Assembly: GCA_036676805.1 (NCBI GenBank)
Contig: JAKFCD010000110.1
Coordinates: forward strand, 66,378-130,377
Origin: Elusimicrobiota bacterium
GTDB taxonomy: Bacteria > Elusimicrobiota > Elusimicrobia > UBA1565 > UBA9628
Length of the DNA: 64,000 nucleotides
Direction: 5' to 3'
Shown: positions 4,061 through 23,677 of the stretch, one piece after another
How positions within the stretch are numbered: position 1 is the first letter of the stretch
Layout: the number at the start of each line of letters is the position of its first letter
Made by a program: the position numbers and the translations under genes
Notes under the pieces: model-generated
Database searches by the model: none
Told to the model about the DNA's origin: nothing
Seen by the model: only the letters and a program-made list of their open reading frames with translations

Positions 4061-4061
4061 C

Positions 4062-6787: not shown

Positions 6788-6846
6788 CTGCCCGGCTGTC
6801 CCGGAGATCGCCTCGCGCACCCCCTTTTATGGATAGGAGGTGCTAC

Positions 6847-7419: not shown

Positions 7420-7730
7420 TGGGCGAGCTCAAACGGCTGACCCTGACGCTCGCGCGAAAGACGCTCGGAAGCGATCTCGCGCAGAACCTGATCCGGGACC
7501 TCAAGTCTCTGAGGGCGCTGTGGAATTGGATTTACATGGCCCTCTACGTCTGGATCTGCGTCTGGACGGTCTTACACCACCCGGATGCCATCCCGACGGT
7601 GGTCACGGTGACGGGCGGGGTGGTGTCGGTCATCTTCAGCGGCTACGTCCTGAGCCGCACCTACGAGAAGGTCAAAAACGGCGGGAATGGCCTGCCGCAC
7701 AACGAGGAGGAGAATGGGAATAGCGATTAG
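7419..7730 (+). CDS. holin-like membrane protein
   Basis: Start overlaps the amidase stop (TGATG). 103-aa product has two hydrophobic helices ('ALWNWIYMALYVWICVWTVL', 'VTGGVVSVIFSGYVL') and a charged C-terminus. Confidence 0.45.
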   Translation: MGELKRLTLTLARKTLGSDLAQNLIRDLKSLRALWNWIYMALYVWICVWTVLHHPDAIPTVVTVTGGVVSVIFSGYVLSRTYEKVKNGGNGLPHNEEENGNSD

Positions 7731-10944: not shown

Positions 10945-13757
10945 TGACCGGCAGCGGGACAATCGACCAACTCATCAAGAACTCCCCGTACAAGGAGCCG
11001 ATGTGTTATTGGTCCTACGATCGGGAGACGCGTTCGTTTAACCTCGTTGAGGGTAAGCGTCGGCCCGCAGGCTACGTGCGGGCATCAGAGAGTTCCCGCT
11101 CCTTCGACGACCCTGGGGAATTCATTGAACTGCCCCTCGTCAACAAGATCCGCGACCGTGTAAAGGCCTGGCGCGAACATCCCCACACGCCCTATGCAGG
11201 AACGACAGGGATCACCCGTCGACTCCTTGAGCACTGGCGCGACCCCTCTCAGCGGGACTCCAATCAGCGCCTGTTCTTCTGCCAACTCGAGGCCATTGAA
11301 ACCCTGATCTGGCTCGCCGAGGCCCCTCCCTCCGAGCGCCAGGGGATCGAGGTGCCCGGCGACGGCGGCCCTTTCACCCGCGTTTGTTCCAAGATGGCAA
11401 CCGGTTCGGGAAAGACGACGGTGATGGGGATGATTATCGCCTGGCAGGTGCTGAACAAGGCCACCTATCCCCAGGATAAGCGTTTCTCGAAGAACATCCT
11501 GATAGTCGCCCCAGGGTTAACGGTGAAGAGTCGTCTCCGAGTGCTGATTCCCGCCGGGGCCGATAACTACTACGAAGAGTTTAATCTAATTCCGCCCGGG
11601 CTTCACGATAAGCTGCGAACCGCCAAGGTGCTCATCCACAATTGGCATGCCCTGATGCCCCTTGACCCAAACGCCGGGCCGCGGGTCATGAAGAAGGGAG
11701 CAGAGAGCGACGAGGCCTTTACCCGGCGCATCCTGGCCGACATGGCCTCCGCCAGCGGCTTACTGGTGATCAACGATGAAGCTCACCATGCCTGGCGTGT
11801 GCCGCCCAAGTCCACGATCAAGGGTATCTCGAAGGACGAAATCGAGGAGGCCACCCAGTGGGTTGGCGGCCTCGACCGCATCCACAAGACGAGAGGAATC
11901 CTCCGTTGCTTCGACCTGACAGCAACCCCCTTCGCGCCCACTGGGAAACGGAGCGGCGAGGAGACTCTATTCGACTGGATCGTCAGCGACTTCGGACTCA
12001 ACGACGCCATCGAGGCCGGCCTCGTGAAGACTCCCCGCGTTGTAATCCGCGACGACGGCGTTCCCGACGCCAGGACCTACAAGTCCCGCCTCTACCACAT
12101 TTACATGGACCCGGAGGTCAAAGACGACCTCAACCGCAAAGCCGAGGCCCACGAGAAGCTGCCCGACCTGGTGATCAATGGGTACTACCTCCTGGGCAAG
12201 GACTGGCTGGAGACTGCCAAGGACTGGAGCAAGCGGGGATTTCCCACGCCGCCTGTCATGATCTCGGTCGCCAACCGAACGGAGACGGCGGCCCGCATCC
12301 AGTTTGCCATTACGCGCGGGAAGATCCGCATTGACGAGCTCAAGGCTCCGGACAAGACCCTCCACATCGACTCCAAGGTGCTGGACGAGGCCGAGGCGCT
12401 GGCGGAACCGGTGACCATCCGCGCAAACGAATCGGCGGACGATGAGACCGAGGACGACGAAGCTCCCATCAGGAAGCTTTCCAGAAAGGAGCAGGCGGAG
12501 TTGCTAAGGCGTAAGGTCGATACCGTCGGTAAGCCGGGACAGCCCGGCGAGCAGATCCAGAAGGTCATCTCGGTTGGGATGCTGTCCGAGGGCTGGGATG
12601 CGAAGACTGTGACGCATATCATGGGGCTTCGCGCCTTCACCAGCCAACTCCTGTGCGAGCAGGTGGTCGGCCGCGGCCTCCGGCGCACCTCCTACGACGT
12701 GAATCCCGATACCGGGCTTTTCGAGCCAGAGTACGTCAACATCTTCGGGGTCCCGTTCACCTTTCTGCCCCATGAGGGAGGCGATGGGCCGCCTCCGCCT
12801 CCGCCTCCGCCAAAAACTCGGATCGAGTCCCTGCCCGAGAATGTCGAGTTTCAGATTTCCTGGCCGAATATCGTGCGGATCGACCACGAGTTCCGGCCGC
12901 AGCTTGCGCTGGACTGGCCCAAGATCAAGCGCCTCACGATCAATGCCAACGACACGCGCACGCTGGCCGAACTCGCACCAGTGGTCGAGGGAAAGCCCGA
13001 CGCCACGAAGGTCACGGAGATAGACCTCGAGGATCTGGGCCGCAAGTTCCGCATGCAGAAGGTGATCTTCGAAGTCGCCGGCGACATTTTCGACCAGATG
13101 AAGCCCGGCTGGAAGGCAAACCGAGAGTACTTGCTGGCGCAGCTCATCAAACTTGTCGAGCAGTTCCTCACAAGCAATAAGCTGGACATCGATCCTCCGT
13201 TATTCAACCAGGATGATCTCAGACGGCGCATCCTCTTAACCTTGAATATGTCCAAGATCGTCCAGCACATCTGGGAGGCGATCCGGTTCTCCAACACGGA
13301 GGCGCTCGCTCCCGTCTTCGACACAGAGTGCCCCGTGCGGTCAACCGGGGACATGCGGCCGTGGTTCACCGGAAGGCCCTGCGAGCACACGAGGCGCTCC
13401 CATATCAGCCACTGCGTCTACGACAGCACCTGGGAGGCGAGCGAGGCCTTCAAGCTCGACCACGACAAGAGCGTCGAGGCGTGGGCCAAGAACGACCATC
13501 TCGGCTTCCAGGTCCTCTATATCTTCAACGGGGTCGTGCGGAAGTATTACCCCGACTTCATGATCCGCCTCAAGAGCGGCAAGATGCTGGTCCTCGAGGT
13601 GAAGGGGCAGGACTCCCAGGAGAATCGCACCAAGCGCGAGTTCCTGAAAGAGTGGGTGGAGGCCGTCAACGCCCATGGCGGCTTCGGGACATGGGCATGG
13701 GACGTCTCCCTCCAGCCGAAGGACTTGGCAGGGATACTTCTACGCCACAGCCGATGA
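10944..13757 (+). CDS. res: Type III restriction enzyme Res subunit (SF2 DEAH helicase plus C-terminal PD-ExK endonuclease)
   Basis: Walker A 'MATGSGKTTVMG', motif II 'VINDEAHHAW', and a C-terminal nuclease motif 'YYPDFMIRLKSGKMLVLEVKG'. Start overlaps the mod stop. Confidence 0.85.
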   Translation: MTGSGTIDQLIKNSPYKEPMCYWSYDRETRSFNLVEGKRRPAGYVRASESSRSFDDPGEFIELPLVNKIRDRVKAWREHPHTPYAGTTGITRRLLEHWRDPSQRDSNQRLFFCQLEAIETLIWLAEAPPSERQGIEVPGDGGPFTRVCSKMATGSGKTTVMGMIIAWQVLNKATYPQDKRFSKNILIVAPGLTVKSRLRVLIPAGADNYYEEFNLIPPGLHDKLRTAKVLIHNWHALMPLDPNAGPRVMKKGAESDEAFTRRILADMASASGLLVINDEAHHAWRVPPKSTIKGISKDEIEEATQWVGGLDRIHKTRGILRCFDLTATPFAPTGKRSGEETLFDWIVSDFGLNDAIEAGLVKTPRVVIRDDGVPDARTYKSRLYHIYMDPEVKDDLNRKAEAHEKLPDLVINGYYLLGKDWLETAKDWSKRGFPTPPVMISVANRTETAARIQFAITRGKIRIDELKAPDKTLHIDSKVLDEAEALAEPVTIRANESADDETEDDEAPIRKLSRKEQAELLRRKVDTVGKPGQPGEQIQKVISVGMLSEGWDAKTVTHIMGLRAFTSQLLCEQVVGRGLRRTSYDVNPDTGLFEPEYVNIFGVPFTFLPHEGGDGPPPPPPPPKTRIESLPENVEFQISWPNIVRIDHEFRPQLALDWPKIKRLTINANDTRTLAELAPVVEGKPDATKVTEIDLEDLGRKFRMQKVIFEVAGDIFDQMKPGWKANREYLLAQLIKLVEQFLTSNKLDIDPPLFNQDDLRRRILLTLNMSKIVQHIWEAIRFSNTEALAPVFDTECPVRSTGDMRPWFTGRPCEHTRRSHISHCVYDSTWEASEAFKLDHDKSVEAWAKNDHLGFQVLYIFNGVVRKYYPDFMIRLKSGKMLVLEVKGQDSQENRTKREFLKEWVEAVNAHGGFGTWAWDVSLQPKDLAGILLRHSR

Positions 13758-15865
13758 AGGTACAGACCCGAAAGGTTCTCCTGCCGAAGAGCGCGCGACC
13801 AAGTCCGGTGGCGTCGATACCTACATGGACCATGCTCGAGGCCGGCGATCTTCCGGTTCGCCAACTCGCGGCCTTTGCTCTGCGGGAAGGCCGGAGACCT
13901 CGGCCGATCTATACTGCCCACAAGTGGTTTGCGAGACGCCTGGGATGCGTCTTTCGAGCGATTCTCATTGGGGCAACCTCTAAGCCGAAGGACGATTTTT
14001 GGGCAGCCTACTACGGGGATGCCAACCTCAAGACACTCAAGGTCCTGGACCCGTTCGTCGGCGGAGGGACCTCTGTCGTCGAAGCTTCCCGCCTAGGTGC
14101 AACCACATTCGGAACCGATGTCGATCCCGTCGCATGCGCAGTGACGAGACTGGAACTTCACGCGGGATTGCTCCCCGACCTTAAGCCAGCTCTTGCGCGC
14201 CTTCAAGAGACAGTGGGAAAGAATTTGAGCCCGTACCACAAGACCCGTGACAGTTCTGGCCAAACCCATACCGTCCTCCATCACTTTTGGGTTCAGGTCG
14301 TGCGGTGCGCTGATTGCAGACACCAGTTCGAGGCACACCCAAATTTCCGCCTTGCCGAAGATGGCAAACATCAATGGGCATTCTGCTCGGCCTGCCACGA
14401 AATCCACAGACTTCCTGCAGCCCAGAACTCTTTCCGCTGCGCCAAGTGCGCCAATGAGACAGAGATCGATGCCGGACGAGTAGTTTATGGCACCGTCGAA
14501 TGTCCGAAGTGTCGGCTCCGGGAGCCATTGATCGAAATCGCGCGTCGAACGACCCGGCCTCCCCATTGGCGGATGTTCGCAAGCGAGGTTATTCCCGAGC
14601 AGAAGGGAACCCGCGCAGTGCCCATGCGCCTGAGAAAGTTCCTGCGGACGACGGGCTTCGATGACTCCCTGTACGAGGATGCCCATAAGGCACTGAGGAG
14701 ATGGAAACGGCGGCACCCCGGTCTCTTGCCCACCAAGGCGATCCGCGCGGGGCGGACCGACTCTCGACTTATCGACTACGGTTATCGAAAATGGACCGAC
14801 CTCTTCAACGCCCGGCAACTTCTTCACCTGTCCATGCTGGCGGAGGCGATCAGGCAGTTTGAGGGTCCCACCCGAATGGCGTTGTCGATGGCCTTTAGCG
14901 ACCATCTGACAACGAATTGTCTTCAGGCCTCGTATGCCTCGGGCTGGCGACGGCTGACTCCACTGTTTGGCGTCCGAGCTTTTCGCCATGTGCCTCGCCC
15001 AGTCGAAATCAACCCTTGGTCCGATGGCACCGGCCGTGGCACTTTCCCAAATACGATTCGCGGCCTGGCTCGCGCGGCCGAGTTTGCCCGAAACCCGAAA
15101 GAGCCGTACCGTGGTGGATTCCGACAGGTATCAGTCATCCCAGCGGATGACCCGCCTCTAATCACCAATACGGCGGCACAAGGACTAAATTTCCTGGAGG
15201 ACGAGAGCATAGATATCGTCCTAACGGACCCCCCGTACTTTGACAACATTGCGTACTCAGAACTGGCAGAGTTCTTTGTTCCCTGGCTCGAGAATCTCGA
15301 CGTGATCAAGCGCCGCGGAACGCGAGAGACAATCATGCTGCATGGGCTCGGCGGCAAGCGCGGCAAGGATCGCACCCTCGACAAGTACACTACCGGGCTC
15401 GGGGGATGCTTTCGAGAGGTCGCGCGCGTCTTGAAGCCAACAGGCCTCGTCGCATTCAGTTTTAGACATGCCGTTCCTGAGGCATGGCTTGCCCTAGCTA
15501 ATGCCATTGCATCCAATCCACTTAGAGTGGCGCAGGTACTGCCCGCGCCAGGAGAGGCCGGGGTAGGACTGCATGTCCACGAGGGCTCCGGCGTTTGGGA
15601 TGCCGTGTTCGTTCTTCGAAAAAACTCCCGGCCGCGATCCTCAAACGAACTGCGAGTCAGCACCCCCCAACAGCGTCAGGTGGATAGAATGGTCACCGCC
15701 TGGAAGAAAAAGCTGTATGGTGCGCCCCTTCCCTTCACCAAAATTGATCAACTCGCCCTAAGAAGAGCGTGTCTAATTTCGGCAGCCCTCATCTCGCGGG
15801 ACGCAAAGACCTCGGCTCAGCCAGGGACTCGTCTGCGAGATCTTTTGTCCGAACCCAAGGATTAG
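13754..15865 (+). CDS. second N6-adenine DNA methyltransferase (DUF1156-like, with CxxC zinc-ribbon insertion)
   Basis: ATGA overlap with res stop. Motif I 'VLDPFVGGGTSVVEASRLGATTFGTDVDP' is N-terminal. A Cys cluster follows (CADCRH...CSACH...CAKCAN...CPKCR). Motif IV 'IVLTDPPYFDNIAY' is C-terminal. The ORF-track start at 13328 is rejected because it lies inside res. Confidence 0.7.
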   Translation: MKVQTRKVLLPKSARPSPVASIPTWTMLEAGDLPVRQLAAFALREGRRPRPIYTAHKWFARRLGCVFRAILIGATSKPKDDFWAAYYGDANLKTLKVLDPFVGGGTSVVEASRLGATTFGTDVDPVACAVTRLELHAGLLPDLKPALARLQETVGKNLSPYHKTRDSSGQTHTVLHHFWVQVVRCADCRHQFEAHPNFRLAEDGKHQWAFCSACHEIHRLPAAQNSFRCAKCANETEIDAGRVVYGTVECPKCRLREPLIEIARRTTRPPHWRMFASEVIPEQKGTRAVPMRLRKFLRTTGFDDSLYEDAHKALRRWKRRHPGLLPTKAIRAGRTDSRLIDYGYRKWTDLFNARQLLHLSMLAEAIRQFEGPTRMALSMAFSDHLTTNCLQASYASGWRRLTPLFGVRAFRHVPRPVEINPWSDGTGRGTFPNTIRGLARAAEFARNPKEPYRGGFRQVSVIPADDPPLITNTAAQGLNFLEDESIDIVLTDPPYFDNIAYSELAEFFVPWLENLDVIKRRGTRETIMLHGLGGKRGKDRTLDKYTTGLGGCFREVARVLKPTGLVAFSFRHAVPEAWLALANAIASNPLRVAQVLPAPGEAGVGLHVHEGSGVWDAVFVLRKNSRPRSSNELRVSTPQQRQVDRMVTAWKKKLYGAPLPFTKIDQLALRRACLISAALISRDAKTSAQPGTRLRDLLSEPKD

Positions 15866-15880
15866 CCGGGGAGAATCAAG

Positions 15881-18800
15881 GTGCCATACCTTACCAAACA
15901 GGTCATCTCCAACTATCTCAGAAGCGAATGCCGGCGCAGGCTTCGCCTCGATCTCTCCCCTGACAATCAACGCTATCGAGCTGAACGTACTGCCCAAGCC
16001 ATGCCACCCGAGGCAGTCGGTCGGCCTGGCCTTCGGGCACTCGCCGCTGCAGGGACAGAATGGGAGGAGTCGAAGCTAAACGACCTCGTTCAAACCCTTG
16101 GCACGGCCGCTCTCATCGGAAATTCAGTTCGAACGACCACGGGCTCACTCCGCTTTTCCGAAACCCCACTATCCGGCGTCATTGGGCGCGCAGCCCCAGG
16201 CACATTCATCGTCCAGGGGGAGTATGACCTGGGTCCGGGCTTCGAGGCCGCCCTGGGAATCGCCTCGCTTCGCACAGCGCATGCGCTCAACTACGGGCAA
16301 CTTCGACCCGATCTCATCCAGGTACTCGCTCCCGGCACGCAATCCCACGCAGTACGGCCCGATGGGACGATCATCGATGTGCCACAGGGCGATCAACGTC
16401 TCCCACTGCGCGTAATTGAGATCAAGTTAACCGCCGAGCCTTCCGTCCCGTATTTCGTCGAAGTCACATACTACTCCATGGCCCTCGCCGCATGGCTGGC
16501 AGACCATCAGCTCGACAATCGCTTCTTTGTCGTTCCGGAAGCGGCGGTATGGCCGGGCTCGCACGAGGCCTCCGCCGTCGTGCGTTTTCAATCCGAATGC
16601 CAGGCACAGGGGATTACGCCCACCTCGGCCCAGTTGCTGCAAGCCCTCGCAGGTGACCTCGAGATCGGCGAATTTAGCGTCTTCGCTCCTCGGCTGAGGC
16701 GATTCTTCCAAGAGGAATTGGCGGCCGTACTCGGGCAACCGTGGCGGCAGCTCGAATGGCATGTTGATAACCGTTGCATCGGATGCGAGTACTTGGGATA
16801 TCCATGGCCTGGGACGACCCCGAATCCCGATCACTGTTGGCCCATGGCCAATACGCAGGATCACCTGAGCCGGGTGGCTTTCGTCTCTCGGGGAGCTCGG
16901 AACGCCCTTGAGGAAAATCTGATTGGGAGCGTCGCCGCGCTCGCGGGCACTCAGCCGGACAACGTCGCATTCGATTCACATCATGTGCTCCGCGCGACAC
17001 GCACCGTCGTCGCCGGAAGGGCCCAGTCATTGACCACGGGACAGGCGGCGGTGCCCCCTCAGGCCGGCACCTCTGCCGTGATGCCTCGGTGGACGGATCT
17101 CCGCATTTACCTTACCGCCGACTTCGACATCGGTAGTGGTATAACCATGGCGTTCGGCTTCAAAGCTGTCTGGGGCGTCGCTCAGAATCGCATCCAACAG
17201 GGTCAGCAGCACTTCCACGTCTGGCAAGCGCAGGCATTCCCCATAGACCAGAGGGACCCCGCAGTTGAGCAGCGGGAGCTTCTTCGGTTGCTAGATGCCG
17301 TGGACCAGGCGCTTCGATTTGCGACGGCGACAATTCCGACCGCAACCGTTCAAGTCTACGTCTGGGATTCCCTGACCTATGATCATCTCGTCCGAGTCAT
17401 CGGCCGCCATCTCACATCGATCATTCAAAACCGCCTGCTATCTCGTCTCGCCTGGCTGTTCCCGCCGGATACTCTTGTCGCCAACCCTGACATTTCGGAC
17501 CGGTTTTGCCCCATCACGGTCTTACGCGACGTCATGCGCGCGGTCATCGCTGCGCCGGTTCCCCATTACTACAGCTTGCTCAGCGTGGCCCGCGAATACC
17601 ATTCTGCGAGAACCCAGCCTCCATTTGATCGGTTTGATGTTCCGACGTTCTTTGAGGACCCCCTGTCTGACCAGGTCCCCTCAGAACGCGCCCACGAAAT
17701 ATGGTCGCGGGCTACAGGCGCACGGCCGTGGAACGTCCAACTTCGCAGTCTTGAACGAACTGTACAAGTGAAGCTGAATGCCATCGAGAGCATCGCCGAT
17801 AGGCTCGGGGCAGACCTTCAGGGGCAGCTCAATCAAACTGCTCCTCGGATCACCGATCTGCGAGCCCCGAGCCTGCCGCGGAGGATGGCAGATGACGCGA
17901 GGCTATGGTCAATCTTTGCGAGGCTGAATGTGGCATTGGAAGAACTTGAAATAGAGAAGACCCATGCAATGCCGCCGCATGAGCGGGAAGCCCGTTTCAA
18001 AAGTGCTTGGCTGACGAATCGTCTCGCGGGCCCGGCTGCTCAGCAGGTACTTACGCGCTTCGGGCTACAGCCGGCCTCTAACCGACTCGTTTTCACCATT
18101 CGGCCGGGCTCTCGCGAGGTCAAGGCGAAGGAAGGAGACTTTACCTTTGCGCTGGCTCCTGCAAGCGCTCCAGGGTTCCTCGGGCGACGAATTAGAACTG
18201 TAGCAGGGGCAGTTCAACTTCCACTCCCGGGAACCAATGACGAATGGAAGCCCATGGAGTATGTCACCGGCGTCTCCGTCCAGGCTATAGATCGGGATGC
18301 AGGCCACATCGTTCTTGATCTAGACACAAGATGGGCTCCCGTCTTCTTTGCACTCGAGCAAGCCGGTGTTGTGAATTTCTCAACAGATGTGATGCTTGAT
18401 CCGGTCCACAGGGATTTCTTCACGAAACGTCTGGACAAGACTCTCAACGCCATCGGAAATCCTCCCATCGCAATCGCGCATCCTGGCGTCGGACAAGCAA
18501 TCGGGCGAGCGAGGCGAGCGACCGCAGGAGCTGTCAGTCCAGTGGCAGATGTCTACTGGAATTCCGCAGCGCTATATGGATCTCAAGTTCAACGCAACCT
18601 GCCGCCGATTCAGACGCTGCTTTCCGCAAGTCCTGACTTCGACCTCAATCAGAGCCAATGGCAGGCGTGGCAGGAATCCCTGACTCATCGCCTGCGCCTG
18701 ATCTGGGGGCCGCCCGGCACGGGGAAGAGCCGCACGCTTCGAACAATCGTGATGGGCGCCTTTCATGAAGCCTCTCAGCAAGGGCAGCAGATGCGTGTCT

Positions 18801-20146
18801 TGGTTACCGGCCCGACCTACGAGGCTATTGACAACGTACTCCTCGGCGTCGCCACAGCTCTTATGGGAACGGGGCCTCTCGCGCTGCAACAAACACTCAT
18901 TGCGAGACTTCGTTCCACGACGCGACCGTCGGACTCGGCAGTGCCTCAGCAGATCGATGTTCCGACTGATCCATCGTCTCAGGCATTCCAGCAGTTGCGC
19001 GGCCGACTACAGCAGGCGCAGGGGCTGACACTCGTAGGGGCCCCGGTCCAACAGGCATACAAATTGATGGATTCAGCGGGACGGCCAGTCCAGGAGTTTT
19101 TCGACCTCGTCATCGTCGATGAAGCCTCTCAGATGGATGTCGCCACTTCGACTTTAGCGCTCGCAGGACTTGCGACAGGCGGCTCGGTTGTTGTCGCTGG
19201 AGATCCTCAACAGTTGCCGCCGATCCACCAGGCGGAGCCGCCGACAGGACTCGAGCACATGGTCGGGCCTCTCTTCAAATATCTGCGAGACCGCCACAAC
19301 CTAACTCCCTTGGTTCTGGATGTTAACTACAGATCGTGCTCAACCATCGTTGAATTGGCCCACGCGGCGAATTACCCAAGAACGCTTCAATCCTATTCAC
19401 CCAATCTTCGGCTCGAAGTTACTACGCCCATTCCAGCCGCTGCAGCCCCTCCTCAGGGATGGCCGCCTGGTTTGCTCTGGACTCCAGAATGGGCAGCGCT
19501 CCTCGATCCTGCGCAGCCAGCAACCTGCTTCATCTATCGGGAAGGACGCAGCAGCCAGTGGAATCAGTTCGAAGCCGATGCCGTCGCATCGCTCGTCTGG
19601 TTGCTTGCGAACCGGGTGGGCGACCACCTGGTGGACGAGCGAATCGCCCCAACTGGGAACATCCAGCCTACGATTGGGCTTCCATACTCCATGCAGGATT
19701 TCTGGAATAGGGGGATTGGGATTGTAACTCCGCACAGAGCGCAGCAGGCTCTCATTGTGAATCGTCTCCAATCGCTGTTCCCCGGTCCAGACGGTCGGGA
19801 TATCCGCGAAGCAGTGGACACGGTCGAGCGATTCCAGGGCCAACAACGGGACGTAATGTTGGCGACCTTCGCATTGGGAGACCCTGACGCCATTGGCGAT
19901 GAGGACGAATTTCTTCTCAGCCTCAATCGCTTCAACGTAATGGTGTCGCGGGCTCGCGCGAAGCTTATCGTATTCGCTTCGCAAGAGGTGGTCGACCATA
20001 TGTCTTCCGACATGAACGTCTTGCGTCAGTCGGCGCTACTAAAAACCTTCGTGGAGCCCTTCTGCAATCAGGGGAGGCCGATGATCCTCGGCCACATGCG
20101 CGCGGCCGGACCTCATCAGGTTCCGGGACGCTTCCGTTGGCGCTAA
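15881..20146 (+). CDS. DNA2-like nuclease-helicase: N-terminal RecB/PD-(D/E)xK-type nuclease plus C-terminal SF1B (Upf1/DNA2-like) helicase, 1421 aa
   Basis: GTG start 9 nt after GGGGAGA. Helicase motifs 'LIWGPPGTGKSRT', 'LVIVDEASQMDV', 'LDVNYRS', 'TVERFQGQQRDV', 'NVMVSRARAKLIVF'. N-terminal 'RPDLIQV ... VIEIKLTAE ... YYSMALAAW' resembles PD/ExK/QxxxY nuclease motifs. Confidence 0.7.
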   Translation: MPYLTKQVISNYLRSECRRRLRLDLSPDNQRYRAERTAQAMPPEAVGRPGLRALAAAGTEWEESKLNDLVQTLGTAALIGNSVRTTTGSLRFSETPLSGVIGRAAPGTFIVQGEYDLGPGFEAALGIASLRTAHALNYGQLRPDLIQVLAPGTQSHAVRPDGTIIDVPQGDQRLPLRVIEIKLTAEPSVPYFVEVTYYSMALAAWLADHQLDNRFFVVPEAAVWPGSHEASAVVRFQSECQAQGITPTSAQLLQALAGDLEIGEFSVFAPRLRRFFQEELAAVLGQPWRQLEWHVDNRCIGCEYLGYPWPGTTPNPDHCWPMANTQDHLSRVAFVSRGARNALEENLIGSVAALAGTQPDNVAFDSHHVLRATRTVVAGRAQSLTTGQAAVPPQAGTSAVMPRWTDLRIYLTADFDIGSGITMAFGFKAVWGVAQNRIQQGQQHFHVWQAQAFPIDQRDPAVEQRELLRLLDAVDQALRFATATIPTATVQVYVWDSLTYDHLVRVIGRHLTSIIQNRLLSRLAWLFPPDTLVANPDISDRFCPITVLRDVMRAVIAAPVPHYYSLLSVAREYHSARTQPPFDRFDVPTFFEDPLSDQVPSERAHEIWSRATGARPWNVQLRSLERTVQVKLNAIESIADRLGADLQGQLNQTAPRITDLRAPSLPRRMADDARLWSIFARLNVALEELEIEKTHAMPPHEREARFKSAWLTNRLAGPAAQQVLTRFGLQPASNRLVFTIRPGSREVKAKEGDFTFALAPASAPGFLGRRIRTVAGAVQLPLPGTNDEWKPMEYVTGVSVQAIDRDAGHIVLDLDTRWAPVFFALEQAGVVNFSTDVMLDPVHRDFFTKRLDKTLNAIGNPPIAIAHPGVGQAIGRARRATAGAVSPVADVYWNSAALYGSQVQRNLPPIQTLLSASPDFDLNQSQWQAWQESLTHRLRLIWGPPGTGKSRTLRTIVMGAFHEASQQGQQMRVLVTGPTYEAIDNVLLGVATALMGTGPLALQQTLIARLRSTTRPSDSAVPQQIDVPTDPSSQAFQQLRGRLQQAQGLTLVGAPVQQAYKLMDSAGRPVQEFFDLVIVDEASQMDVATSTLALAGLATGGSVVVAGDPQQLPPIHQAEPPTGLEHMVGPLFKYLRDRHNLTPLVLDVNYRSCSTIVELAHAANYPRTLQSYSPNLRLEVTTPIPAAAAPPQGWPPGLLWTPEWAALLDPAQPATCFIYREGRSSQWNQFEADAVASLVWLLANRVGDHLVDERIAPTGNIQPTIGLPYSMQDFWNRGIGIVTPHRAQQALIVNRLQSLFPGPDGRDIREAVDTVERFQGQQRDVMLATFALGDPDAIGDEDEFLLSLNRFNVMVSRARAKLIVFASQEVVDHMSSDMNVLRQSALLKTFVEPFCNQGRPMILGHMRAAGPHQVPGRFRWR

Positions 20147-21030
20147 AACCGCGGATGCGCCCTCTGGCAAGCCTTCTTCAGATGCTCGGCTGTGACGTGG
20201 GTGTAGCGGGCCGTCGTCAGCACGGACGCGTGACCCAATAGCTCGGCAAGGGTCCGCAGGTCGACGCCTCCCTGGAGCAGATGCGTCGCGCAGCTATGGC
20301 GGATCTGATGGGGCGTCACGCGGCCAAGAAGCCCAGCCCGGCGCGCTGCCGCCCCAAGACGCCTCCCGAAGCCGCCACGAGTGATCGGACCCCGGCCTCG
20401 CCCATTGAGAAACACGACGTCGCCCGTCGCCGGGAAGCGCGCGGCGCGGGCATCAAGGTAGCGCCCCAGGGCGGCCCCAGCGCGGGGCCCGAAGGGGACA
20501 AGGCGCTCCTTTGAGCCCTTCCCCGTCACGCGCGCCCAACCCTCCCGGAGGTCTACCTGCCCCAGGCGCAGGCCGGTCAGCTCCGAGACCCGCATCCCCG
20601 TGGCGTACATGAGCTCGAGCATGGCGTGGTCGCGCAAGGCCGCGAACTTGCCCCCCACAGGCGGGCGAAGCAGGCGATCCATGCCCTCCTCGGCCAACGG
20701 TTTCGGGATTCGCTGCTTGAACCGCGGCAGCCTCATCCCGCTGGTCGGGTCGGCCGGGACGAGGCCGACCGCGACCAGATGGCGATGGAACTGTCGGACG
20801 GCCATCGCAGCGATGAATAGCGACGCGGACTTGAGCCCGGCGTCCCGGCGGCGCTCGTGGTAGGCGAGGACGTCGCCGCGGGTGGCAGTGGCCACCGCCC
20901 GGCCATTCTCCCGCAGGTGGGCCACGTAGGCCCCGAGCTGATACCCGTAGGACAGGCAGGTGTTGGGGGCAAGCCCCCGCTCCACCCGCAGATGCTGCAC
21001 GAAAGCGTCGACCAGCGGATCAGTCGCCAT
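20143..21030 (-). CDS. site-specific tyrosine recombinase, XerC/XerD family (295 aa, no phage-type arm-binding domain)
   Basis: N-terminus 'LVDAFVQHLRVERGLAPNTCLSYGYQL'. C-terminal catalytic region 'RHSCATHLLQGGVDLRTLAELLGHASVLTTARYTHV'. The size and N-terminus match Xer-type recombinases rather than phage integrases. Confidence 0.8.
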   Translation of the reverse strand: MATDPLVDAFVQHLRVERGLAPNTCLSYGYQLGAYVAHLRENGRAVATATRGDVLAYHERRRDAGLKSASLFIAAMAVRQFHRHLVAVGLVPADPTSGMRLPRFKQRIPKPLAEEGMDRLLRPPVGGKFAALRDHAMLELMYATGMRVSELTGLRLGQVDLREGWARVTGKGSKERLVPFGPRAGAALGRYLDARAARFPATGDVVFLNGRGRGPITRGGFGRRLGAAARRAGLLGRVTPHQIRHSCATHLLQGGVDLRTLAELLGHASVLTTARYTHVTAEHLKKACQRAHPRF

Positions 21031-21039
21031 CGACGCGCC

Positions 21040-21465
21040 CTACGCCTTCTGGACGACGCGCACCCGCTTCTTCTCGTCGCGGACCACCTGCCAGCCCTTC
21101 CTGGCGTAGGAGACCATCCGGGCCCGCACGTTGGCCTGGAGGTCCTTACCCTTGGCGGCGTCGCCGGCCTTCTTGGCGAGCTCGGCGGCGATCTCCTGGA
21201 CCGTATGCTGCCCCGTCGTCAGCATGGGGTCGATGAACGCCGCCAGCGACCCATCCCTGCCCGCGCCCTGGGCCTTGCCCGCCTTCTTCACGCCGTTGGC
21301 GGCGACCGTCTTCGCGACCTTCCCGTTCTTCTTCGCCATAGCTCTCTCCTCCCATTCGATTCGTCGGACCTCTTCCGCGCAGCCGTGGCAGGCGAAGCCC
21401 GCGAAGGACCGCCTCACCACCAGCCGTCCGGCCATCACGTTCGTGCCGCACTTCTCGCAGATCAT
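21040..21465 (-). CDS. small basic Lys/Ala-rich putative DNA-binding protein, possibly with an N-terminal zinc ribbon (alternative start 21366)
   Basis: A strong internal RBS (GGGAGGAGAG) precedes 'MAKKNGKVAKTVAANGVKKAGKAQGAG'. Upstream in frame lies 'CEKCG...CHGC'. The C-terminal 'GKDLQANVRARMVSYARKGWQVV' module is shared with the 22869-23291 product. Confidence 0.45.
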   Translation of the reverse strand: MICEKCGTNVMAGRLVVRRSFAGFACHGCAEEVRRIEWEERAMAKKNGKVAKTVAANGVKKAGKAQGAGRDGSLAAFIDPMLTTGQHTVQEIAAELAKKAGDAAKGKDLQANVRARMVSYARKGWQVVRDEKKRVRVVQKA

Positions 21466-21474
21466 CGCCTGCTC

Positions 21475-21714
21475 TCAGGCCAACTCGTCGGGCTTGGCTC
21501 CGGGCCGGAAAGACCCAATGAGTTTCTCCACCTCGCGCATCTCCTTGCGGCGTTCCGTGAATTCGGAAATGCCGTGCGACACGCCGCGCGCCACGGCCAC
21601 CTCGACTTCCTTGCGGCCGAAGCCGAGTTGCAGCGCCCGGATGACCTGGTCCGCCAGCAGGTCGGTGACCAGACAGTTGAGCACATCGTCCTTGGGCATC
21701 TTCATCTCTTTTCC
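21475..21714 (-). CDS. hypothetical small protein (HTH-like)
   Basis: GGAGG RBS precedes 'MKMPKDD...'. The segment 'GFGRKEVEVAVARGVSHGISEFTERRKEM' resembles an HTH. Confidence 0.4.
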   Translation of the reverse strand, partial: GKEMKMPKDDVLNCLVTDLLADQVIRALQLGFGRKEVEVAVARGVSHGISEFTERRKEMREVEKLIGSFRPGAKPDELA

Positions 21715-21932
21715 TCCCGGAGCGCGGCGTCGTATTTCTTGAAGGCGGTCATGATGCGCTCGGCCTCCCGCTGCGCCTCGTTGCAGGCCGTGTAGACGGC
21801 GTGGATCTCCTCGGGGTCGAGCCCTCCCTTGAATTGGAGAGCCAGACCCTTGGCGTCCGTCTCGAAGCAGATGTCGGTGAATTCGCTCGAGGGGTGCGGC
21901 CGCGTCACGACCCAAAACTTCTCGATCTTCAT
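21702..21932 (-). CDS. hypothetical small protein
   Basis: GGGAGG RBS. 'MKIEKFWVVTRPHPSSEFTDICFETDAKG...' has coding-like composition. Its 3' end overlaps the next gene's start (21702-21714). Confidence 0.4.
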   Translation of the reverse strand: MKIEKFWVVTRPHPSSEFTDICFETDAKGLALQFKGGLDPEEIHAVYTACNEAQREAERIMTAFKKYDAALREEKR

Positions 21933-22141
21933 TGGCCCCTCCCAGGTGCTTGAAGCTTCTCTCGAATGAGGTGGATCGCCAACCCAAACGCCTCGGCGGC
22001 CGCGCAATTGCCGTCGTTGATCGCCTCGCCGAGCCATTCGTCCAAGACCGCCTCCGCCTCCCTCAGGTACGAGGGGTGTCGCGCGTTCTTGGCCGCGATC
22101 TTCGTCACCGTGTCCTTGTCGAATCTCTCCCTGGTCGCCAT
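21929..22141 (-). CDS. hypothetical small protein
   Basis: GGGAGG RBS precedes 'MATRERFDKDTVTKIAAKNARHPSYL...'. 4-nt overlap with the downstream gene. Confidence 0.4.
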   Translation of the reverse strand: MATRERFDKDTVTKIAAKNARHPSYLREAEAVLDEWLGEAINDGNCAAAEAFGLAIHLIREKLQAPGRGQ

Positions 22142-22543
22142 CTCTTGCCTCCCACCCTCGGGGCAAACCCCTTGGGTCAGGAAGGAAGCTACAGCGACTT
22201 CCCGAAGTAATCCATAGGCCTGAAGGCCCAATTCTCGTCGGAAAGCCGCAACACCTTGCGACGTTCGGCTCGAAATTCGGGACCCCGAATCGGAGGCGAA
22301 AAGTCGCGCGAATTTGGGGAAGACGCCGGCCGCCGCGATGCGCTGCGGCGGCCGGGCTACTTCGATGGGCTTGGCCGCTGCTCCCGGCGGCCGCGGATCG
22401 CGCGGACGTGGGGCAGGAACCCGCTCGCTGGCTTCGCGTGGAGCAGCCGCCACAAGAACGAGTCGATGCCGCCCCAATCGACGCGGTCCTCCCACACGGT
22501 GACCACGAACTCTGTCAGGATCAGCCGCTTGCGCCGGGCCACT

Positions 22544-22795
22544 CTACGCGCCCGACCCGGCCTCCGCAGCCTTCAGGTAGCCCTCGCGCTTCAGGCGATC
22601 CGAGATGGCCTCGAACCCCAGGCTGTAGAAGCTCGTGCCCGTGGCCTTCTTGTACGCCTTCGCCGCGTCCAGGAGATCCTGAGTGACGCGGATCGCGCGG
22701 ACGATTGGCTTGGGAGGCCCTTCGGGCTTCGGCGCGGCCTGCTTGGCGGCGGGTGCCGCCGCGGTCTTCTTTCCGTTTTTCTTCGATTTGGACAT
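22544..22795 (-). CDS. small basic Lys/Ala/Pro-rich (histone H1-like tail) protein
   Basis: AGGAGGGA RBS 5 nt before the ATG. The N-terminus 'MSKSKKNGKKTAAAPAAKQAAPKPEGPPKP' has a KKNGK prefix that is shared with the 21040 product. Confidence 0.5.
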   Translation of the reverse strand: MSKSKKNGKKTAAAPAAKQAAPKPEGPPKPIVRAIRVTQDLLDAAKAYKKATGTSFYSLGFEAISDRLKREGYLKAAEAGSGA

Positions 22796-22868
22796 GGTGT
22801 CCCTCCTCTTGGTCGGGCGGTTGGCCGCCCGTTGCGAGGACAGGACTACCTTCTAACTCGGCGGCTCA

Positions 22869-23291
22869 TCAAGCTACCTGGCAGGGATGCGCCCTAAGAT
22901 GGCCGTTCGAGTCCTTCTCGATCCGGTATCCCTTCGCGCGGAGCCAGTAGACCCGGGCGCGGACGTTGGCTGGGAGGTCCTTGCCCCGGCAAGCGGCGCT
23001 GGCCTTGCGCCTGGTCTCGCGTAGTATGCCGCGCATGGTCAGCTCTCCCCGGACCAGGAGGGAGTCGATGACCGCGGACAGGGGCGGGCCCGATGCGCGC
23101 GCCGGGGTCGCGCCAATGGCTGGAGCGCCCCGCTGGACTCGCTTGAGGGGGTAGGCCGCCGGGATCGCGTAGCGATTGCCCGAGGCAAGGCTGGTCACGA
23201 TCATGGCCCCAGGGCGCGCCACCTCGACCCGGACTGAGAGGCCGGAGGCCGTGACGCAGATGTCGCCCCTCCCCGGCCTATGGGTCGCCAT
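22869..23291 (-). CDS. hypothetical protein with C-terminal module paralogous to the 21040-21465 product
   Basis: C-terminus '...CRGKDLPANVRARVYWLRAKGYRIEKD' compared with 'KGKDLQANVRARMVSYARKGWQVVRDE'. The N-terminal ~90 aa are unrelated. Confidence 0.45.
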   Translation of the reverse strand: MATHRPGRGDICVTASGLSVRVEVARPGAMIVTSLASGNRYAIPAAYPLKRVQRGAPAIGATPARASGPPLSAVIDSLLVRGELTMRGILRETRRKASAACRGKDLPANVRARVYWLRAKGYRIEKDSNGHLRAHPCQVA

Positions 23292-23677
23292 GGCCCCCCG
23301 ATTCGCTGCCCTGTTGGGGCGGCGATGGTGGTAAAGTCCAGCCGTTCTTCAAACGACCGGATTCGAACTTCTTGCTCTTGGGGCGGGCATCCGAACGCGC
23401 GTCGCCTCGCTCGAAACCCGCCTCCGGGTCTCGAAAAACCTTCTCGCCGTTCGCGATCAGGGCGAAATCGGCGGGCCAGCGGGCCGGGAAAGACGGGATA
23501 TATTGCGTTGTTTCGGTCGATGGAACAGGCGGACGAATTAAAGCGGTGGTATTATGACCTCGCCGTCCCCGCCAGCTTTTCCGTGATTCGGCAACCGCTG
23601 TTTCAGTCCCGTTTTTTCGCGGGTCAGGGACAGCGGTTATTATTTTGGATTCTCAGCTTGCTCGTGGGGGAGGCGCC

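What the first reader, a model, noticed from the sequence alone, without database searches (positions are those of the whole stretch)
21040..23291. Leftward cluster of small overlapping genes encoding modular basic Lys/Ala-rich proteins with a shared C-terminal module
Two proteins (21040-21465 and 22544-22795) start with a 'KKNGK' Lys/Ala(/Pro)-rich histone-H1-like tail. Two (21040-21465 and 22869-23291) end with a near-identical ~25-aa module 'GKDL[QP]ANVRAR...Y..[AR]KG[WY]...'. The helix-wing pattern of that module loosely recalls a linker-histone globular winged helix. Domain shuffling among adjacent small genes next to a recombinase suggests element-encoded nucleoid-associated proteins or regulators, which are often uncharacterised.
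Basis: seen in the sequence. Interest (0 to 1): 0.6.

Follow-up and report, generated by a model that had tools for sequence, protein, structure and literature searches.

The report
Prophage winged-helix proteins beside recombinases
The small leftward genes are the recombination and lysogeny end of an Elusimicrobiota prophage, and the shared "module" is a real but uncatalogued 65-residue winged-helix DNA-binding domain, not a histone relative, carried by two paralogues that each sit next to a site-specific recombinase.

Summary
The shared module is real and larger than reported. orfF (21040-21465) and orfA (22869-23291) align over 64 aa at 41% identity (E=5e-13). AlphaFold models it as a canonical winged helix (pLDDT 80-94).

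It belongs to a small family found only in Elusimicrobiota MAGs and viral contigs. An exhaustive search gave 98 clusters, and no match reaches the Pfam or NCBIfam cut-off; PHROG has only weak matches. The domain is fused through flexible linkers to interchangeable N-termini: a Zn ribbon in orfF and an SH3-like barrel in orfA.

The "KKNGK" resemblance is not significant. Nothing ties the domain specifically to linker histones.

Context settles what the element is. Window 1-23578 is a siphovirus-like prophage with tape measure, tail, endolysin and a Type III R-M cargo. The cluster sits at its attR end.

orfF is locked upstream of a Xer-like tyrosine recombinase in about 20 of 23 loci. orfA directly follows the detached 3' tail of a large serine recombinase (LSR) gene, whose attP core is the 3' end of tRNA-Asp.

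Best guess, inferred and not shown: both are DNA-binding accessory or directionality factors for the adjacent recombinases. The rival reading is transcription regulators. The family is a new member of a known kind, of moderate interest. The attP inside the LSR reading frame is the more unusual by-product.

The parts
21040..21465 (-). orfF, 141 aa. It has a CxxC..CxxC Zn ribbon (res 1-30) plus a helix, a disordered Lys/Ala linker (48-71), and a C-terminal winged helix (71-141, = 21043-21255). Its stop codon lies 9 nt before the int start.
   Evidence: 120 homologue clusters. AF2 gives H1 74-84, H2 89-99, H3 109-122 and a wing at 126-138; pI 10.2.
21337..21356 (-). Internal GGGAGGAG Shine-Dalgarno-like motif (21346-21353) followed by the Met43 ATG (21337-21339). 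This is a putative start for a 99-aa short isoform beginning 'MAKKNGK...'.
   Evidence: GGAGG is kept 9-12 nt upstream of the internal ATG in 10 distinct loci, although the overlapping codons change (EWEER / NRRNEG / ESEARL); many gene calls of 96-111 aa start at this Met.
22869..23291 (-). orfA, 140 aa. It has an N-terminal five-stranded SH3-like barrel (res 11-51), a disordered linker (54-66), and a winged helix (71-136; module about 22884-23090).
   Evidence: BLASTP against orfF; hhalign against type-2 relatives gives prob 99, E=7.5e-18; 13 homologue clusters. AF2 pLDDT 81 overall and above 90 in the winged helix. Tudor, PWWP and SH3 hits for the N-terminal domain.
22544..22795 (-). orfB, 83 aa. 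It has a Lys/Ala/Pro-rich N-terminal tail and is probably a ribbon-helix-helix (Arc-like) DNA-binding domain (res 27-71).
   Evidence: phrog_6506 (Arc-like repressor) at E=0.006-0.008 in 4 of 9 family members. This is weak; one member hits DUF6290 at E=0.019; homologues in 9 loci. No PDB or Pfam hit at threshold.
22357..22542 (-). orfB2, 61 aa, basic (pI 11.6), GTG start 1 nt after the orfB stop. A G+C-rich hairpin follows at about 22325-22356.
   Evidence: A gene is called at the same place in L001 and L006. tblastn finds it in L039 and L040.
22142..22356 (-). Non-coding gap between the orfA-B-B2 block and the orfC-int block. It contains the palindrome ATTCGGG-GT-CCCGAAT (22275-22290) and a segment conserved across distant relatives (22169-22210). 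This is the likely promoter/operator region.
   Evidence: sequence; the IG_BC query matches at 85-87% in L001-L005 and L013. The consensus scan found no sigma-70 promoter.
21475..22141 (-). orfC (21929-22141, 70 aa), orfD (21702-21932, 76 aa) and orfE (21475-21705, 76 aa). They are small, near-neutral proteins linked by ATGA overlaps, with no family assignment.
   Evidence: Synteny and tblastn conservation in more than 12 loci.
20143..21030 (-). Xer-like tyrosine recombinase, 295 aa. It has a SAM-like N-domain and a catalytic domain but no arm-binding domain.
   Evidence: Phage_integrase at 2.8e-40 and Phage_int_SAM_1 at 3.5e-15. NF001399 scores 277 bits against a cut-off of 279, and the XerD and XerC equivalogs are also below cut-off.
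23278..23578 (-). Region X. This is the detached 3' coding tail (about 100 codons) of the phage's large serine recombinase (LSR) gene. It has no start codon here, and it overlaps the orfA start by 14 nt.
   Evidence: it is homologous to residues about 560-640 of intact LSR ORFs in L023, L029 and L046; amino-acid-level conservation with synonymous changes; the window/L006 homology begins abruptly at 23578.
23563..23575 (-). att core CTGGCGGGGACGG. It is the reverse complement of a tRNA 3' end (CCGTCCCC-G-CCA-G). This is the right-hand prophage/host junction (attR).
   Evidence: it occurs once per locus, at the start of X; in L053 and L054 the same core is the 3' end of an intact tRNA-Asp(GTC) that overlaps the end of the tail-less LSR ORF.
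23593..23638 (+). Hairpin AACCGCTGT...ACAGCGGTT followed by a T-rich run on the + strand. It is read as the host tRNA gene's own terminator, left behind at attR.
   Evidence: sequence; hairpins of unrelated sequence occupy the same position in other X-only loci (L022, L027, L030); only a chance CRISPR-DR-like score.
1..8313 (+). Prophage late genes: tape-measure C-terminus (117-1286), tail proteins (1283-4060 and 4062-6533), amidase endolysin (6829-7419), a holin-like ORF (7125-7730) and a membrane protein (7687-8313).
   Evidence: phrog_1538 at 2.5e-14, phrog_1887 at 1e-6, phrog_822 at 1.5e-7. Amidase_2; the upstream contig carries HK97-gp10-like, Phage_tube_2 and TMP genes; the same genes appear in IMG/VR viral contigs.
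8410..20146 (+). Low-GC cargo (56-61% GC) between the lysis genes and int. It holds a Type III R-M Mod (8410-10944), a Res-like helicase (10944-13757), a second methyltransferase-like protein (13328-15865) and a 1421-aa SF1 helicase resembling DpdJ and MkoA (15881-20146).
   Evidence: PDLC03632 MTase_III at 4.8e-161 and DpdJ at 1e-49; relatives carry different cargo at this position.

Best explanation
SHOWN.
- The cluster is the attR-proximal, leftward-transcribed block of a siphovirus-like prophage of an Elusimicrobiota bacterium (window 1-23578).
- It encodes two paralogues of a phylum-restricted winged-helix (WH) family whose signature is IDP.L..G..T..EIA...//GKDL.ANVRAR....RKG.
- The WH domain is always C-terminal. 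It is basic (pI 10-11) and joined by a disordered, often Lys/Ala-rich linker to swappable N-terminal modules: a Zn ribbon in orfF and an SH3-like barrel in orfA.
- Each paralogue is syntenically tied to a site-specific recombinase. orfF lies immediately upstream of the Xer-like tyrosine recombinase. orfA lies immediately downstream of, and overlapping, the large serine recombinase (LSR) reading frame as it exists in the circular phage.

INFERRED.
- The WH domains bind DNA through helix 3 (invariant N-x-R-x-R) and the basic wing. The basic linker adds non-specific backbone contacts.
- The N-terminal Zn ribbon or SH3-like module contacts the partner recombinase or promotes oligomerisation.
- The proteins then act as accessory or directionality factors, Xis/RDF-like in function, that shape or license recombination by their neighbouring recombinase.
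- orfB, probably an Arc-like ribbon-helix-helix protein with a basic tail, is the likely transcriptional regulator of the block.
For: Domain reality and fold:
- E=5e-13 over 64 aa.
- H1-H2-H3 plus a beta-hairpin wing, pLDDT up to 94.
- all structural neighbours are WH DNA-binding domains.
- 36 of 54 members give sub-threshold hits to the Pfam WH_GDS1 winged helix.
- pI 10-11.

Family scope:
- 120 clusters.
- 98 representatives among 1.84e9 proteins.
- 31 GTDB loci, 30 titled Elusimicrobia or Elusimicrobiota (one says only 'bacterium'), with up to 7 in one MAG.
- 7 IMG/VR viral contigs.

Modularity.

Prophage context.

Synteny:
- A WH gene is followed by int within 3-725 nt in about 20 of 23 distinct loci.
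- orfA-type genes are preceded by the LSR tail in at least 14 loci.
- The full-length LSR ORF overlaps the orfA start. In L023 the overlap is ATGA. In L029 it is 14 nt.

The immunity repressor appears to lie elsewhere. A LexA/S24 CI-like gene sits next to the LSR at the other prophage end in L054.

From established knowledge, not tested here:
- Lambda, P22 and Tn916 Xis are small basic winged-helix proteins encoded directly upstream of int.
- phiRv1 uses a Xis-like RDF with a serine integrase.
- ArgR, a WH protein, is an accessory factor for Xer recombination at cer.
Against: - There is no sequence or specific structural similarity to any known Xis/RDF family. No Pfam, PHROG or NCBIfam excisionase hit appears, and Foldseek E-values are all above 0.01.
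- The proteins are larger (99-141 aa) and more modular than classical Xis.
- Most characterised serine-integrase RDFs bind the integrase, not DNA.
- The helix-3 signature ANVRAR is invariant across phages. The repeated motifs around att, by contrast, co-vary between phages. The WH domain is therefore unlikely to read those motifs base-specifically.
- In the prophage state orfA has lost its upstream LSR transcription unit and no promoter was detected. That is awkward for an excision factor.
- No binding, expression or recombination data exist.
Confidence: 0.4

Rival explanations
1. The winged-helix (WH) proteins are sequence-specific transcription regulators of the phage early/lysogeny block. 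They would be Cro-, activator- or autorepressor-like and act on operators such as the 22275-22290 palindrome or the conserved 22169-22210 segment. Their adjacency to recombinase genes would only reflect operon organisation.
For: - The structural neighbours are mostly transcription factors: Fur/Nur/Zur, ArgR, BlaI, BirA and forkhead.
- The block contains conserved non-coding segments and palindromes.
- orfA pairs with a probable Arc-like RHH protein.
- An invariant recognition helix would fit a conserved operator shared by all these phages.
Against: - No conserved operator matching the invariant helix was identified. The consensus promoter scan found nothing.
- A conventional CI-like LexA/S24 repressor exists elsewhere in a related phage.
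- The very strict WH-to-int adjacency (3-725 nt, about 20 of 23 loci) is more than operon membership requires. So is the overlap with the LSR ORF.
Confidence: 0.3
2. The proteins would be phage-encoded nucleoid-associated, histone-H1-like architectural proteins that coat or compact DNA non-specifically through the Lys/Ala tail plus the winged helix.
For: - The proteins have basic pI.
- Some relatives carry Lys/Ala/Pro-rich linkers of 30-40 residues, for example P0041 with KPAAAKKKAAKPQGGKKAAAKPQGAKK.
- The invariant helix 3 would suit sequence-independent binding.
- The layout of a WH domain plus a basic tail resembles a linker histone, although the tail is on the other side of the domain.
Against: - No Linker_histone Pfam hit appears.
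- H1.0 ranks only 32nd in Foldseek, at E=1.8.
- orfA has no Lys-rich linker.
- Linker length and composition are not conserved.
- The family is confined to prophages and viral contigs, at a fixed position beside recombinases. It is not an abundant chromosomal gene.
Confidence: 0.1
3. The winged helix (WH) is a protein-protein module, as in some cullin, ESCRT or replication WH domains. It would bind the recombinase or another phage or host protein rather than DNA. One example would be an anti-repressor or a partner of the defence cargo.
For: - Serine-integrase RDFs generally act by binding the integrase (established knowledge).
- The invariant surface motif ANVRAR..RKG could be a conserved protein interface.
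- Variable defence cargo always lies next to int.
Against: - The strongly basic helix 3 and wing and the basic linkers are typical of nucleic-acid binding.
- The WH genes are conserved while the cargo varies completely. A cargo-specific role is therefore unlikely.
Confidence: 0.15

Closest known systems
Lambda/P22/Tn916-type excisionases (Xis; winged-helix recombination directionality factors)
   Same: - Small, basic proteins with a winged-helix fold.
- Encoded on the same strand immediately upstream of the integrase gene of a temperate phage. The gap between orfF and int is 9 nt in the window.
   Different: - No detectable sequence similarity and no specific structural match.
- An extra N-terminal Zn ribbon or SH3-like domain and a long disordered linker.
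- The partner integrase is Xer-like and lacks an arm-binding domain.
- The function is untested.
ArgR/AhrC N-terminal winged helix (accessory factor for XerCD at cer; arginine repressor)
   Same: - Among the top Foldseek neighbours of the orfF winged helix: 3v4g, 1f9n, 2p5l and 1b4a.
- It is a winged-helix protein that helps a Xer-type recombinase. That is the same kind of pairing as orfF with its Xer-like Int.
   Different: - The E-values of 0.5-2 are not significant.
- ArgR has a C-terminal hexamerisation and arginine-binding domain, which is absent here.
- This is a lead only.
Linker histone H1/H5 globular domain
   Same: - A generic three-helix winged-helix fold.
- In orfF the domain is adjacent to a Lys/Ala-rich disordered segment.
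   Different: - No Pfam Linker_histone match.
- H1.0 ranks 32nd at E=1.8.
- The basic segment is N-terminal to the domain and is missing in orfA.
- The context is bacterial and prophage-encoded.
Pfam PF25318 WH_GDS1 (fungal GDS1 winged-helix domain)
   Same: It is the only profile that recurrently touches the family. 36 of 54 members hit at E<=0.01, with a best value of 1.1e-5.
   Different: - orfF scores 17 bits against a gathering score of 27.
- The match covers only helix 2 to helix 3.
- WH_GDS1 is a eukaryotic family of unknown function.
P22 Arc/Mnt and other ribbon-helix-helix phage repressors (for orfB)
   Same: - A beta-alpha-alpha pattern (IRAIRV - helix - helix).
- A weak match to the PHROG Arc-like repressor family.
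- A small phage regulator with a flexible basic N-terminal tail.
   Different: - The statistics are weak (E about 0.006-0.008).
- No Pfam or PDB match.
- The 30-residue Lys/Ala/Pro tail is unusually long.
Integrase genes that span their own attP (Myxococcus phage Mx8 intP/intX; Sulfolobus SSV1 int), recalled from memory
   Same: - The phage attachment core lies inside the recombinase reading frame.
- Integration therefore changes the 3' end of the gene. Here it swaps a tail of about 100 aa for about 10 tRNA-encoded residues.
   Different: - Those cases involve tyrosine recombinases. Here the split gene is a large serine recombinase.
- It is not proven that the LSR, rather than the co-resident Xer-like Int, uses this tRNA-Asp site.

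Membership tests
Winged-helix DNA-binding fold (superfamily level) | A three-helix bundle (H1-H2-H3) followed by a beta-hairpin wing, with basic residues on helix 3 and the wing | tested here: met
   - AF2 for orfF gives H 74-84, 89-99 and 109-122 and strands 126-129 and 134-138.
- AF2 for orfA gives H 71-81, 86-96 and 106-119 and strands 122-126 and 132-136, with pLDDT above 90.
- The Foldseek neighbours are all WH domains.
Linker histone H1/H5 (Pfam PF00538) | Sequence match to the Linker_histone profile | tested here: not met
   No hit at E<=1 for orfF or orfA. No hit at E<=0.01 for 54 family members.
Linker histone H1/H5 (Pfam PF00538) | Closest structural neighbour is the GH1/GH5 globular domain | tested here: not met
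   H1.0 (7xvl_o) ranks 32nd at E=1.8 with TM 0.29-0.45. It falls behind ArgR, Fur, FoxP3 and BlaI.
Linker histone H1/H5 (Pfam PF00538) | A long Lys/Ala/Pro-rich tail flanking the globular domain | tested here: inconclusive
   - The tail is present N-terminal to the WH domain in orfF and in many relatives.
- Its length varies.
- It is absent in orfA.
- The KKNGK match to orfB is not significant.
Excisionase / recombination directionality factor (Xis-like) | A small basic protein encoded adjacent to, and co-oriented with, the integrase gene of an integrative element | tested here: met
   - The orfF stop lies 9 nt before the int start.
- The WH-to-int gap is 3-725 nt in about 20 of 23 loci.
- pI is 10.2-10.6.
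Excisionase / recombination directionality factor (Xis-like) | Sequence membership of a known excisionase family (Pfam, PHROG or NCBIfam excisionase models) | tested here: not met
   Searches give no excisionase family at any listed threshold.
Excisionase / recombination directionality factor (Xis-like) | Binds att arm DNA or the integrase and switches the direction of recombination | not testable with these tools
   This needs EMSA or footprinting and in vitro or in vivo recombination assays. The repeated att-flanking motifs co-vary while helix 3 is invariant, which does not favour base-specific reading by the WH domain.
Pfam WH_GDS1 (PF25318) | Score at or above the curated gathering threshold (27 bits) | tested here: not met
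   orfF scores 17.0 bits, E=0.0061. 36 of 54 relatives match only at E between 1.1e-5 and 0.01.
Ribbon-helix-helix (Arc/MetJ/CopG) - orfB | Profile match to an RHH family over the beta-alpha-alpha core | tested here: inconclusive
   - phrog_6506 (Arc-like repressor) at E=0.0078 for orfB, residues 27-71, and in 4 of 9 homologues.
- One member hits DUF6290 at 0.019.
- No PDB profile hit.
XerC/XerD chromosomal dimer-resolution recombinases - the int gene | Score above the NCBIfam equivalog cut-offs | tested here: not met
   - XerD scores 273.5 against 329.6.
- XerC scores 264.2 against 335.2.
- The subfamily model NF001399 scores 277.4 against 279.
- The gene is multicopy and phage-borne.
Large serine recombinase - region X (23278-23578) | Homology to the C-terminal tail of intact LSR ORFs carrying Resolvase, Recombinase and Zn_ribbon_recom domains | tested here: met
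   tblastn of the L023 LSR against the window gives E=2e-14, with meaningful alignment from about residue 550 to 640. The tail is present in P0224, P0226, P0235, P0240 and the L046 ORF.

The most novel reading that the evidence does not exclude
The phage would carry two dedicated winged-helix directionality factors, one for each of two different recombinases.

Its large serine recombinase (LSR) would also sense its own integration state. attP (the tRNA-Asp 3' end) lies inside the LSR reading frame. The circular phage would therefore make a 630-700-aa LSR with the X tail, translationally coupled to orfA. The prophage would make a roughly 570-aa LSR that ends in tRNA-encoded residues and is uncoupled from orfA.

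orfA together with the X tail would then form a built-in switch that biases integration against excision.
Probability: 0.2. Interest if true: 0.7.

Novelty: new member of a known kind. Interest (0 to 1): 0.45.

Why it matters
Elusimicrobiota phages are almost unstudied. This work defines a conserved temperate-phage family of 36-52 kb. It identifies the attachment site as the 3' ends of tRNA-Asp or tRNA-Glu. It also shows a variable defence-gene slot between int and the lysis cassette.

The winged-helix family has no match that reaches the Pfam or NCBIfam cut-off (PHROG has only weak matches) and could be registered as a new domain.

If the two paralogues are directionality or accessory factors, they would give handles for controlling a serine and a tyrosine recombinase from an unexplored phylum. 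That is of practical interest for integrase toolkits.

An attP inside a serine-recombinase ORF, which swaps the enzyme's C-terminus on integration, would extend a phenomenon known to me only for tyrosine integrases (Mx8, SSV1).

Tried and rejected
- **Known families.** Pfam, NCBIfam, PHROG, and PDB sequence or profile searches found nothing at threshold for orfA-F.
- **RNA gene near the cluster.** ARAGORN and Rfam found nothing in the window. The tRNA-like GTTCGAATCC in X is coding sequence for KFES, not a T-arm.
- **X as an N-terminal extension of orfA or a programmed frameshift.** Rejected, because the frame offset between X and orfA varies among loci.
- **X as a structured ncRNA.** Rejected, because substitutions are synonymous-type and X is in frame with LSR ORFs.
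- **att direct repeat inside the window.** None was found. This is expected, since the other prophage end lies left of the window.
- **Locating the window's own LSR on its contig.** P0249 is not in the look-up index. No accessions were available either.
- **Exact att pattern in IMG/VR.** No match.
- **Consensus promoter/terminator scan of the block.** Uninformative.
- **Literature.** Searches on Elusimicrobia prophages, the GDS1 winged helix, and serine integrases at tRNA genes gave nothing directly relevant.


Full report
**1. What is in the sequence**

On the minus strand between 23291 and 20143 lies a tight string of genes:
- orfA: 22869-23291, 140 aa.
- orfB: 22544-22795, 83 aa, with a good AGGAGG upstream.
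- orfB2: 22357-22542, 61 aa.
- A 215-nt gap.
- orfC: 21929-22141.
- orfD: 21702-21932.
- orfE: 21475-21705.
- orfF: 21040-21465, 141 aa.
- After 9 nt, a 295-aa tyrosine recombinase: 20143-21030.

C/D and D/E overlap by ATGA. GC3 is 0.82-0.93 in every called frame, so all of them carry coding signal.

**2. The shared module**

BLASTP of orfF against orfA aligns 64 residues at 41% identity with no gaps, E=5e-13. The module is therefore a whole domain and not a 25-aa motif.

The claimed KKNGK tail resemblance between orfF and orfB is not significant (E=1.1). In orfF the motif is internal (residues 45-49), after a CxxC...CxxC Zn ribbon.

It does follow Met43. That Met is preceded by a GGAGG motif kept 9-12 nt upstream in ten distinct homologous loci, even where the overlapping codons differ. 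Many database gene calls of 96-111 aa begin there. A short isoform starting "MAKKNGK" is plausible but unproven.

**3. Fold**

AlphaFold2 with family alignments gives these models:
- orfF: Zn-ribbon hairpins plus a helix (1-48), a disordered linker (48-71), and a canonical winged helix with H1 74-84, H2 89-99, H3 109-122 and a wing at 126-138.
- orfA: a five-stranded SH3-like barrel (11-51), a disordered linker (54-66), and the same winged helix with pLDDT above 90.

Foldseek against the PDB returns only generic winged-helix DNA-binding domains. These include ArgR/AhrC, Fur/Nur/Zur, forkhead, BlaI, BirA, ORC2 and Hjm. The orfA N-domain matches Tudor, PWWP and SH3 folds. None has E<0.01.

Linker histone H1.0 appears only at rank 32, E=1.8. 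BFVD gives nothing informative.

In Pfam only WH_GDS1 touches the family, recurrently but below threshold:
- orfF scores 17 bits against a cut-off of 27.
- 36 of 54 members hit at E<=0.01.
- Linker_histone is never hit.

The PDB profile search is empty.

orfB gives weak, repeated matches to the PHROG Arc-like repressor family (E about 0.006-0.008 in 4 of 9 homologues). Its pattern fits a ribbon-helix-helix. I treat this as probable, not shown.

**4. Family and modularity**

- orfF has 120 homologue clusters. orfA has 13.
- An exhaustive HMMER pass with a winged-helix-only profile over 1.84 billion representatives finds just 98 clusters.
- Of the 31 GTDB loci, 30 are titled as Elusimicrobia or Elusimicrobiota MAGs and one says only 'bacterium'. 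One MAG carries up to seven loci.
- The domain is essentially always C-terminal.
- It is combined with at least four N-terminal arrangements: a Zn ribbon, an SH3-like barrel (orfA matches this class at hhalign probability 99, E=7.5e-18), an LSR-tail-like segment, or nothing.
- Invariant positions cluster at the start of helix 3 (A-N-V-R-A-R).

**5. What the element is**

The left third of the window encodes phage late genes:
- A tape-measure C-terminus (phrog_1538, 2.5e-14).
- Tail proteins.
- An Amidase_2 endolysin.
- A holin-like ORF.

A sister contig carrying the same 925-aa tail gene adds HK97-gp10-like, tail-tube and tape-measure genes upstream.

Seven IMG/VR viral contigs of 20-53 kb carry an orfF-type gene. 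Five of those show lysis or tail genes converging on it. The shared layout is: small genes, then orfF and Int, followed by a variable cargo, with the membrane protein, holin, amidase and tail genes running the opposite way towards it.

In the window the cargo (8410-20146, GC 56-61% against about 68%) comprises:
- A Type III R-M Mod (4.8e-161) and a Res-like helicase.
- A second methyltransferase-like protein.
- A 1421-aa helicase resembling DpdJ and MkoA.

Relatives carry other defence-like genes at the same spot. The cluster is thus one end of a temperate siphovirus-like prophage.

**6. The prophage end and the serine recombinase**

Homology between the window and its closest relative (L006) starts abruptly at 23578.

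The 290 nt between there and orfA ("X") are more conserved than the genes. X has no start codon, yet across loci it shows amino-acid conservation with synonymous changes.

X turned out to be the C-terminal roughly 100 codons of large serine recombinase (LSR) ORFs, which are intact in L023, L029 and L046.

A family search shows two length classes:
- 609-697-aa proteins. At least six of the nine longest clearly carry the X tail.
- 559-596-aa proteins, mostly 563-581 aa, that lack it. At least 24 of the top 60 end in ...WRGRRD(L/S)NPRS(P/L)P* or WRPQRDSNP*.

That ending is the translation of the reverse complement of a tRNA 3' end. In L053 and L054, ARAGORN finds an intact tRNA-Asp(GTC) on the opposite strand overlapping the last codons of the tail-less LSR, with host genes beyond.

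The conserved 13-mer at the start of X (CTGGCGGGGACGG, window 23563-23575) is the complement of the tRNA acceptor 3' strand plus CCA. The hairpin and T-run just outside it (23593-23638, + strand) look like the tRNA gene's own terminator left at attR.

So attP lies inside the LSR reading frame, and integration exchanges the LSR's C-terminus.

Two further observations support this picture:
- One 52.6-kb viral contig carries the WH-Int module at one end (1985-3586) and a tail-less LSR at the very other end (50,914-52,602), on the same strand. This is exactly as predicted.
- The window's own LSR body is very probably P0249 (578 aa, tail-less). It sits on a contig of 130,458 nt, the same length as the contig carrying every window protein tested. 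I could not obtain its coordinates.

Which recombinase uses the tRNA site is not proven. I favour the LSR because its ORF spans the core.

**7. Function of the winged-helix proteins**

Shown:
- Both are basic (pI 10-11), with a winged helix whose helix 3 and wing are basic.
- Both are phage-borne.
- Each is positionally locked to a recombinase. A WH gene is followed by int within 3-725 nt in about 20 of 23 distinct loci.
- orfA-type genes sit directly after the LSR tail in at least 14 loci. The full-length LSR ORF overlaps the orfA start by ATGA in L023 and by 14 nt in L029.
- A conventional LexA/S24 CI-like repressor sits by the LSR at the other prophage end in a relative. The winged-helix proteins therefore need not be the immunity repressor.

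Inferred: they are DNA-binding accessory or directionality factors for the adjacent recombinases, analogous to Xis or to ArgR at cer, with the N-terminal module as a protein-contact or oligomerisation element. I put this at about 0.4.

Against this reading:
- There is no similarity to known Xis or RDF families.
- The invariant recognition helix contrasts with the co-varying att-flanking repeats.
- orfA has no evident promoter in the prophage state.

The rivals are transcription regulators (0.3), protein-binding adaptors (0.15) and H1-like nucleoid proteins (0.1).

**8. Verdict**

The module is real, and modular basic proteins lie next to a recombinase on a mobile element.

The histone-like reading is not supported. 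The thing is an ordinary kind of object, small phage DNA-binding proteins in a recombination/lysogeny block. It is a new, phylum-restricted family with an unusual modular build.

Noticed in passing
window 23278-23638 (minus strand); L023, L029, L046, L053, L054, L061: attP lies inside the large serine recombinase (LSR) ORF.
- The 13-mer at 23563-23575 is the complement of a tRNA-Asp 3' end.
- X (23278-23578) is the detached LSR tail.
- Integrated copies of the LSR end in tRNA-encoded WRGRRDLNPRSPP*.
- One UViG carries the WH/Int module and the tail-less LSR at opposite ends.
   Followed up: partly
window 23545-23556 and 23330-23336; same positions in L019, L024, L027, L029, L030, L036: A motif about 20 nt after the att core (CATAATACCACC in the window) recurs as a direct repeat 145-240 nt further into X. 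In attP-state loci it also appears as an inverted copy about 20 nt before the core. The motif differs between phages, but its copies co-vary (for example CAAACCAGTA twice in L024). This suggests arm-type or accessory-protein sites with an unknown reader.
   Followed up: partly
window 8410-20146: A low-GC (56-61%) defence-type cargo lies between the lysis cassette and int. It holds a Type III R-M Mod and Res, a second methyltransferase-like protein and a 1421-aa SF1 helicase resembling DpdJ and MkoA. Related phages carry entirely different cargo in the same slot (DNA_methylase+PLD+MZB+helicase; MethyltransfD12; SNF2/EMARD). The slot behaves as a cargo hotspot next to the Xer-like recombinase.
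   Followed up: partly
window 1-8313 and L048: Prophage structural and lysis genes: tape measure, two large tail proteins, an Amidase_2 endolysin, a holin-like ORF and a membrane protein. The two tail proteins of 925 and 823 aa have no Pfam hit.
   Followed up: partly
window 21337-21356: An in-frame internal start for orfF is likely. A conserved GGAGG precedes Met43. This would give a Zn-ribbon-containing long form and a 99-aa tail-plus-winged-helix short form.
   Followed up: partly
window 22357-22542 and 22325-22356: A conserved 61-aa basic ORF (orfB2) starts 1 nt after the orfB stop. It has no family match in PHROG. A 32-nt G+C-rich hairpin follows it and may end the orfA-orfB-orfB2 unit.
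   Followed up: no
window 22275-22290 and 22169-22210: The palindrome ATTCGGG-GT-CCCGAAT and a 42-nt segment conserved at 85-87% in distant relatives lie upstream of orfC. They are a candidate operator and promoter for the orfC-int operon.
   Followed up: no
L009, L018, L021, L023, L024, L028, L029 (all JACQPG01, one MAG): Seven separate loci with the winged-helix module occur in a single groundwater Elusimicrobia MAG. Several have frameshifted LSR genes (L024, L028). This suggests multiple related, partly decayed prophages or phage contigs binned together.
   Followed up: no
L049/L050 (5677-5730 and 9498-9573): In a sub-lineage the LSR ends in the 3' two-thirds of a tRNA-Glu(UUC)-like sequence that ARAGORN does not call. 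An intact tRNA-Glu lies 3.8 kb away, beyond AbiEi-like and TyrRS genes. This may reflect a tandem insertion or a rearranged att region.
   Followed up: no
L001 (365-kb contig) and L039: Some relatives carry a different LSR subfamily (707 aa, no X tail, no orfA). It sits intact in mid-operon between a Prim-Pol/D5 primase and orfB...orfF-Int. The serine and tyrosine recombinases therefore co-occur in different configurations, which may reflect alternative integration routes.
   Followed up: no
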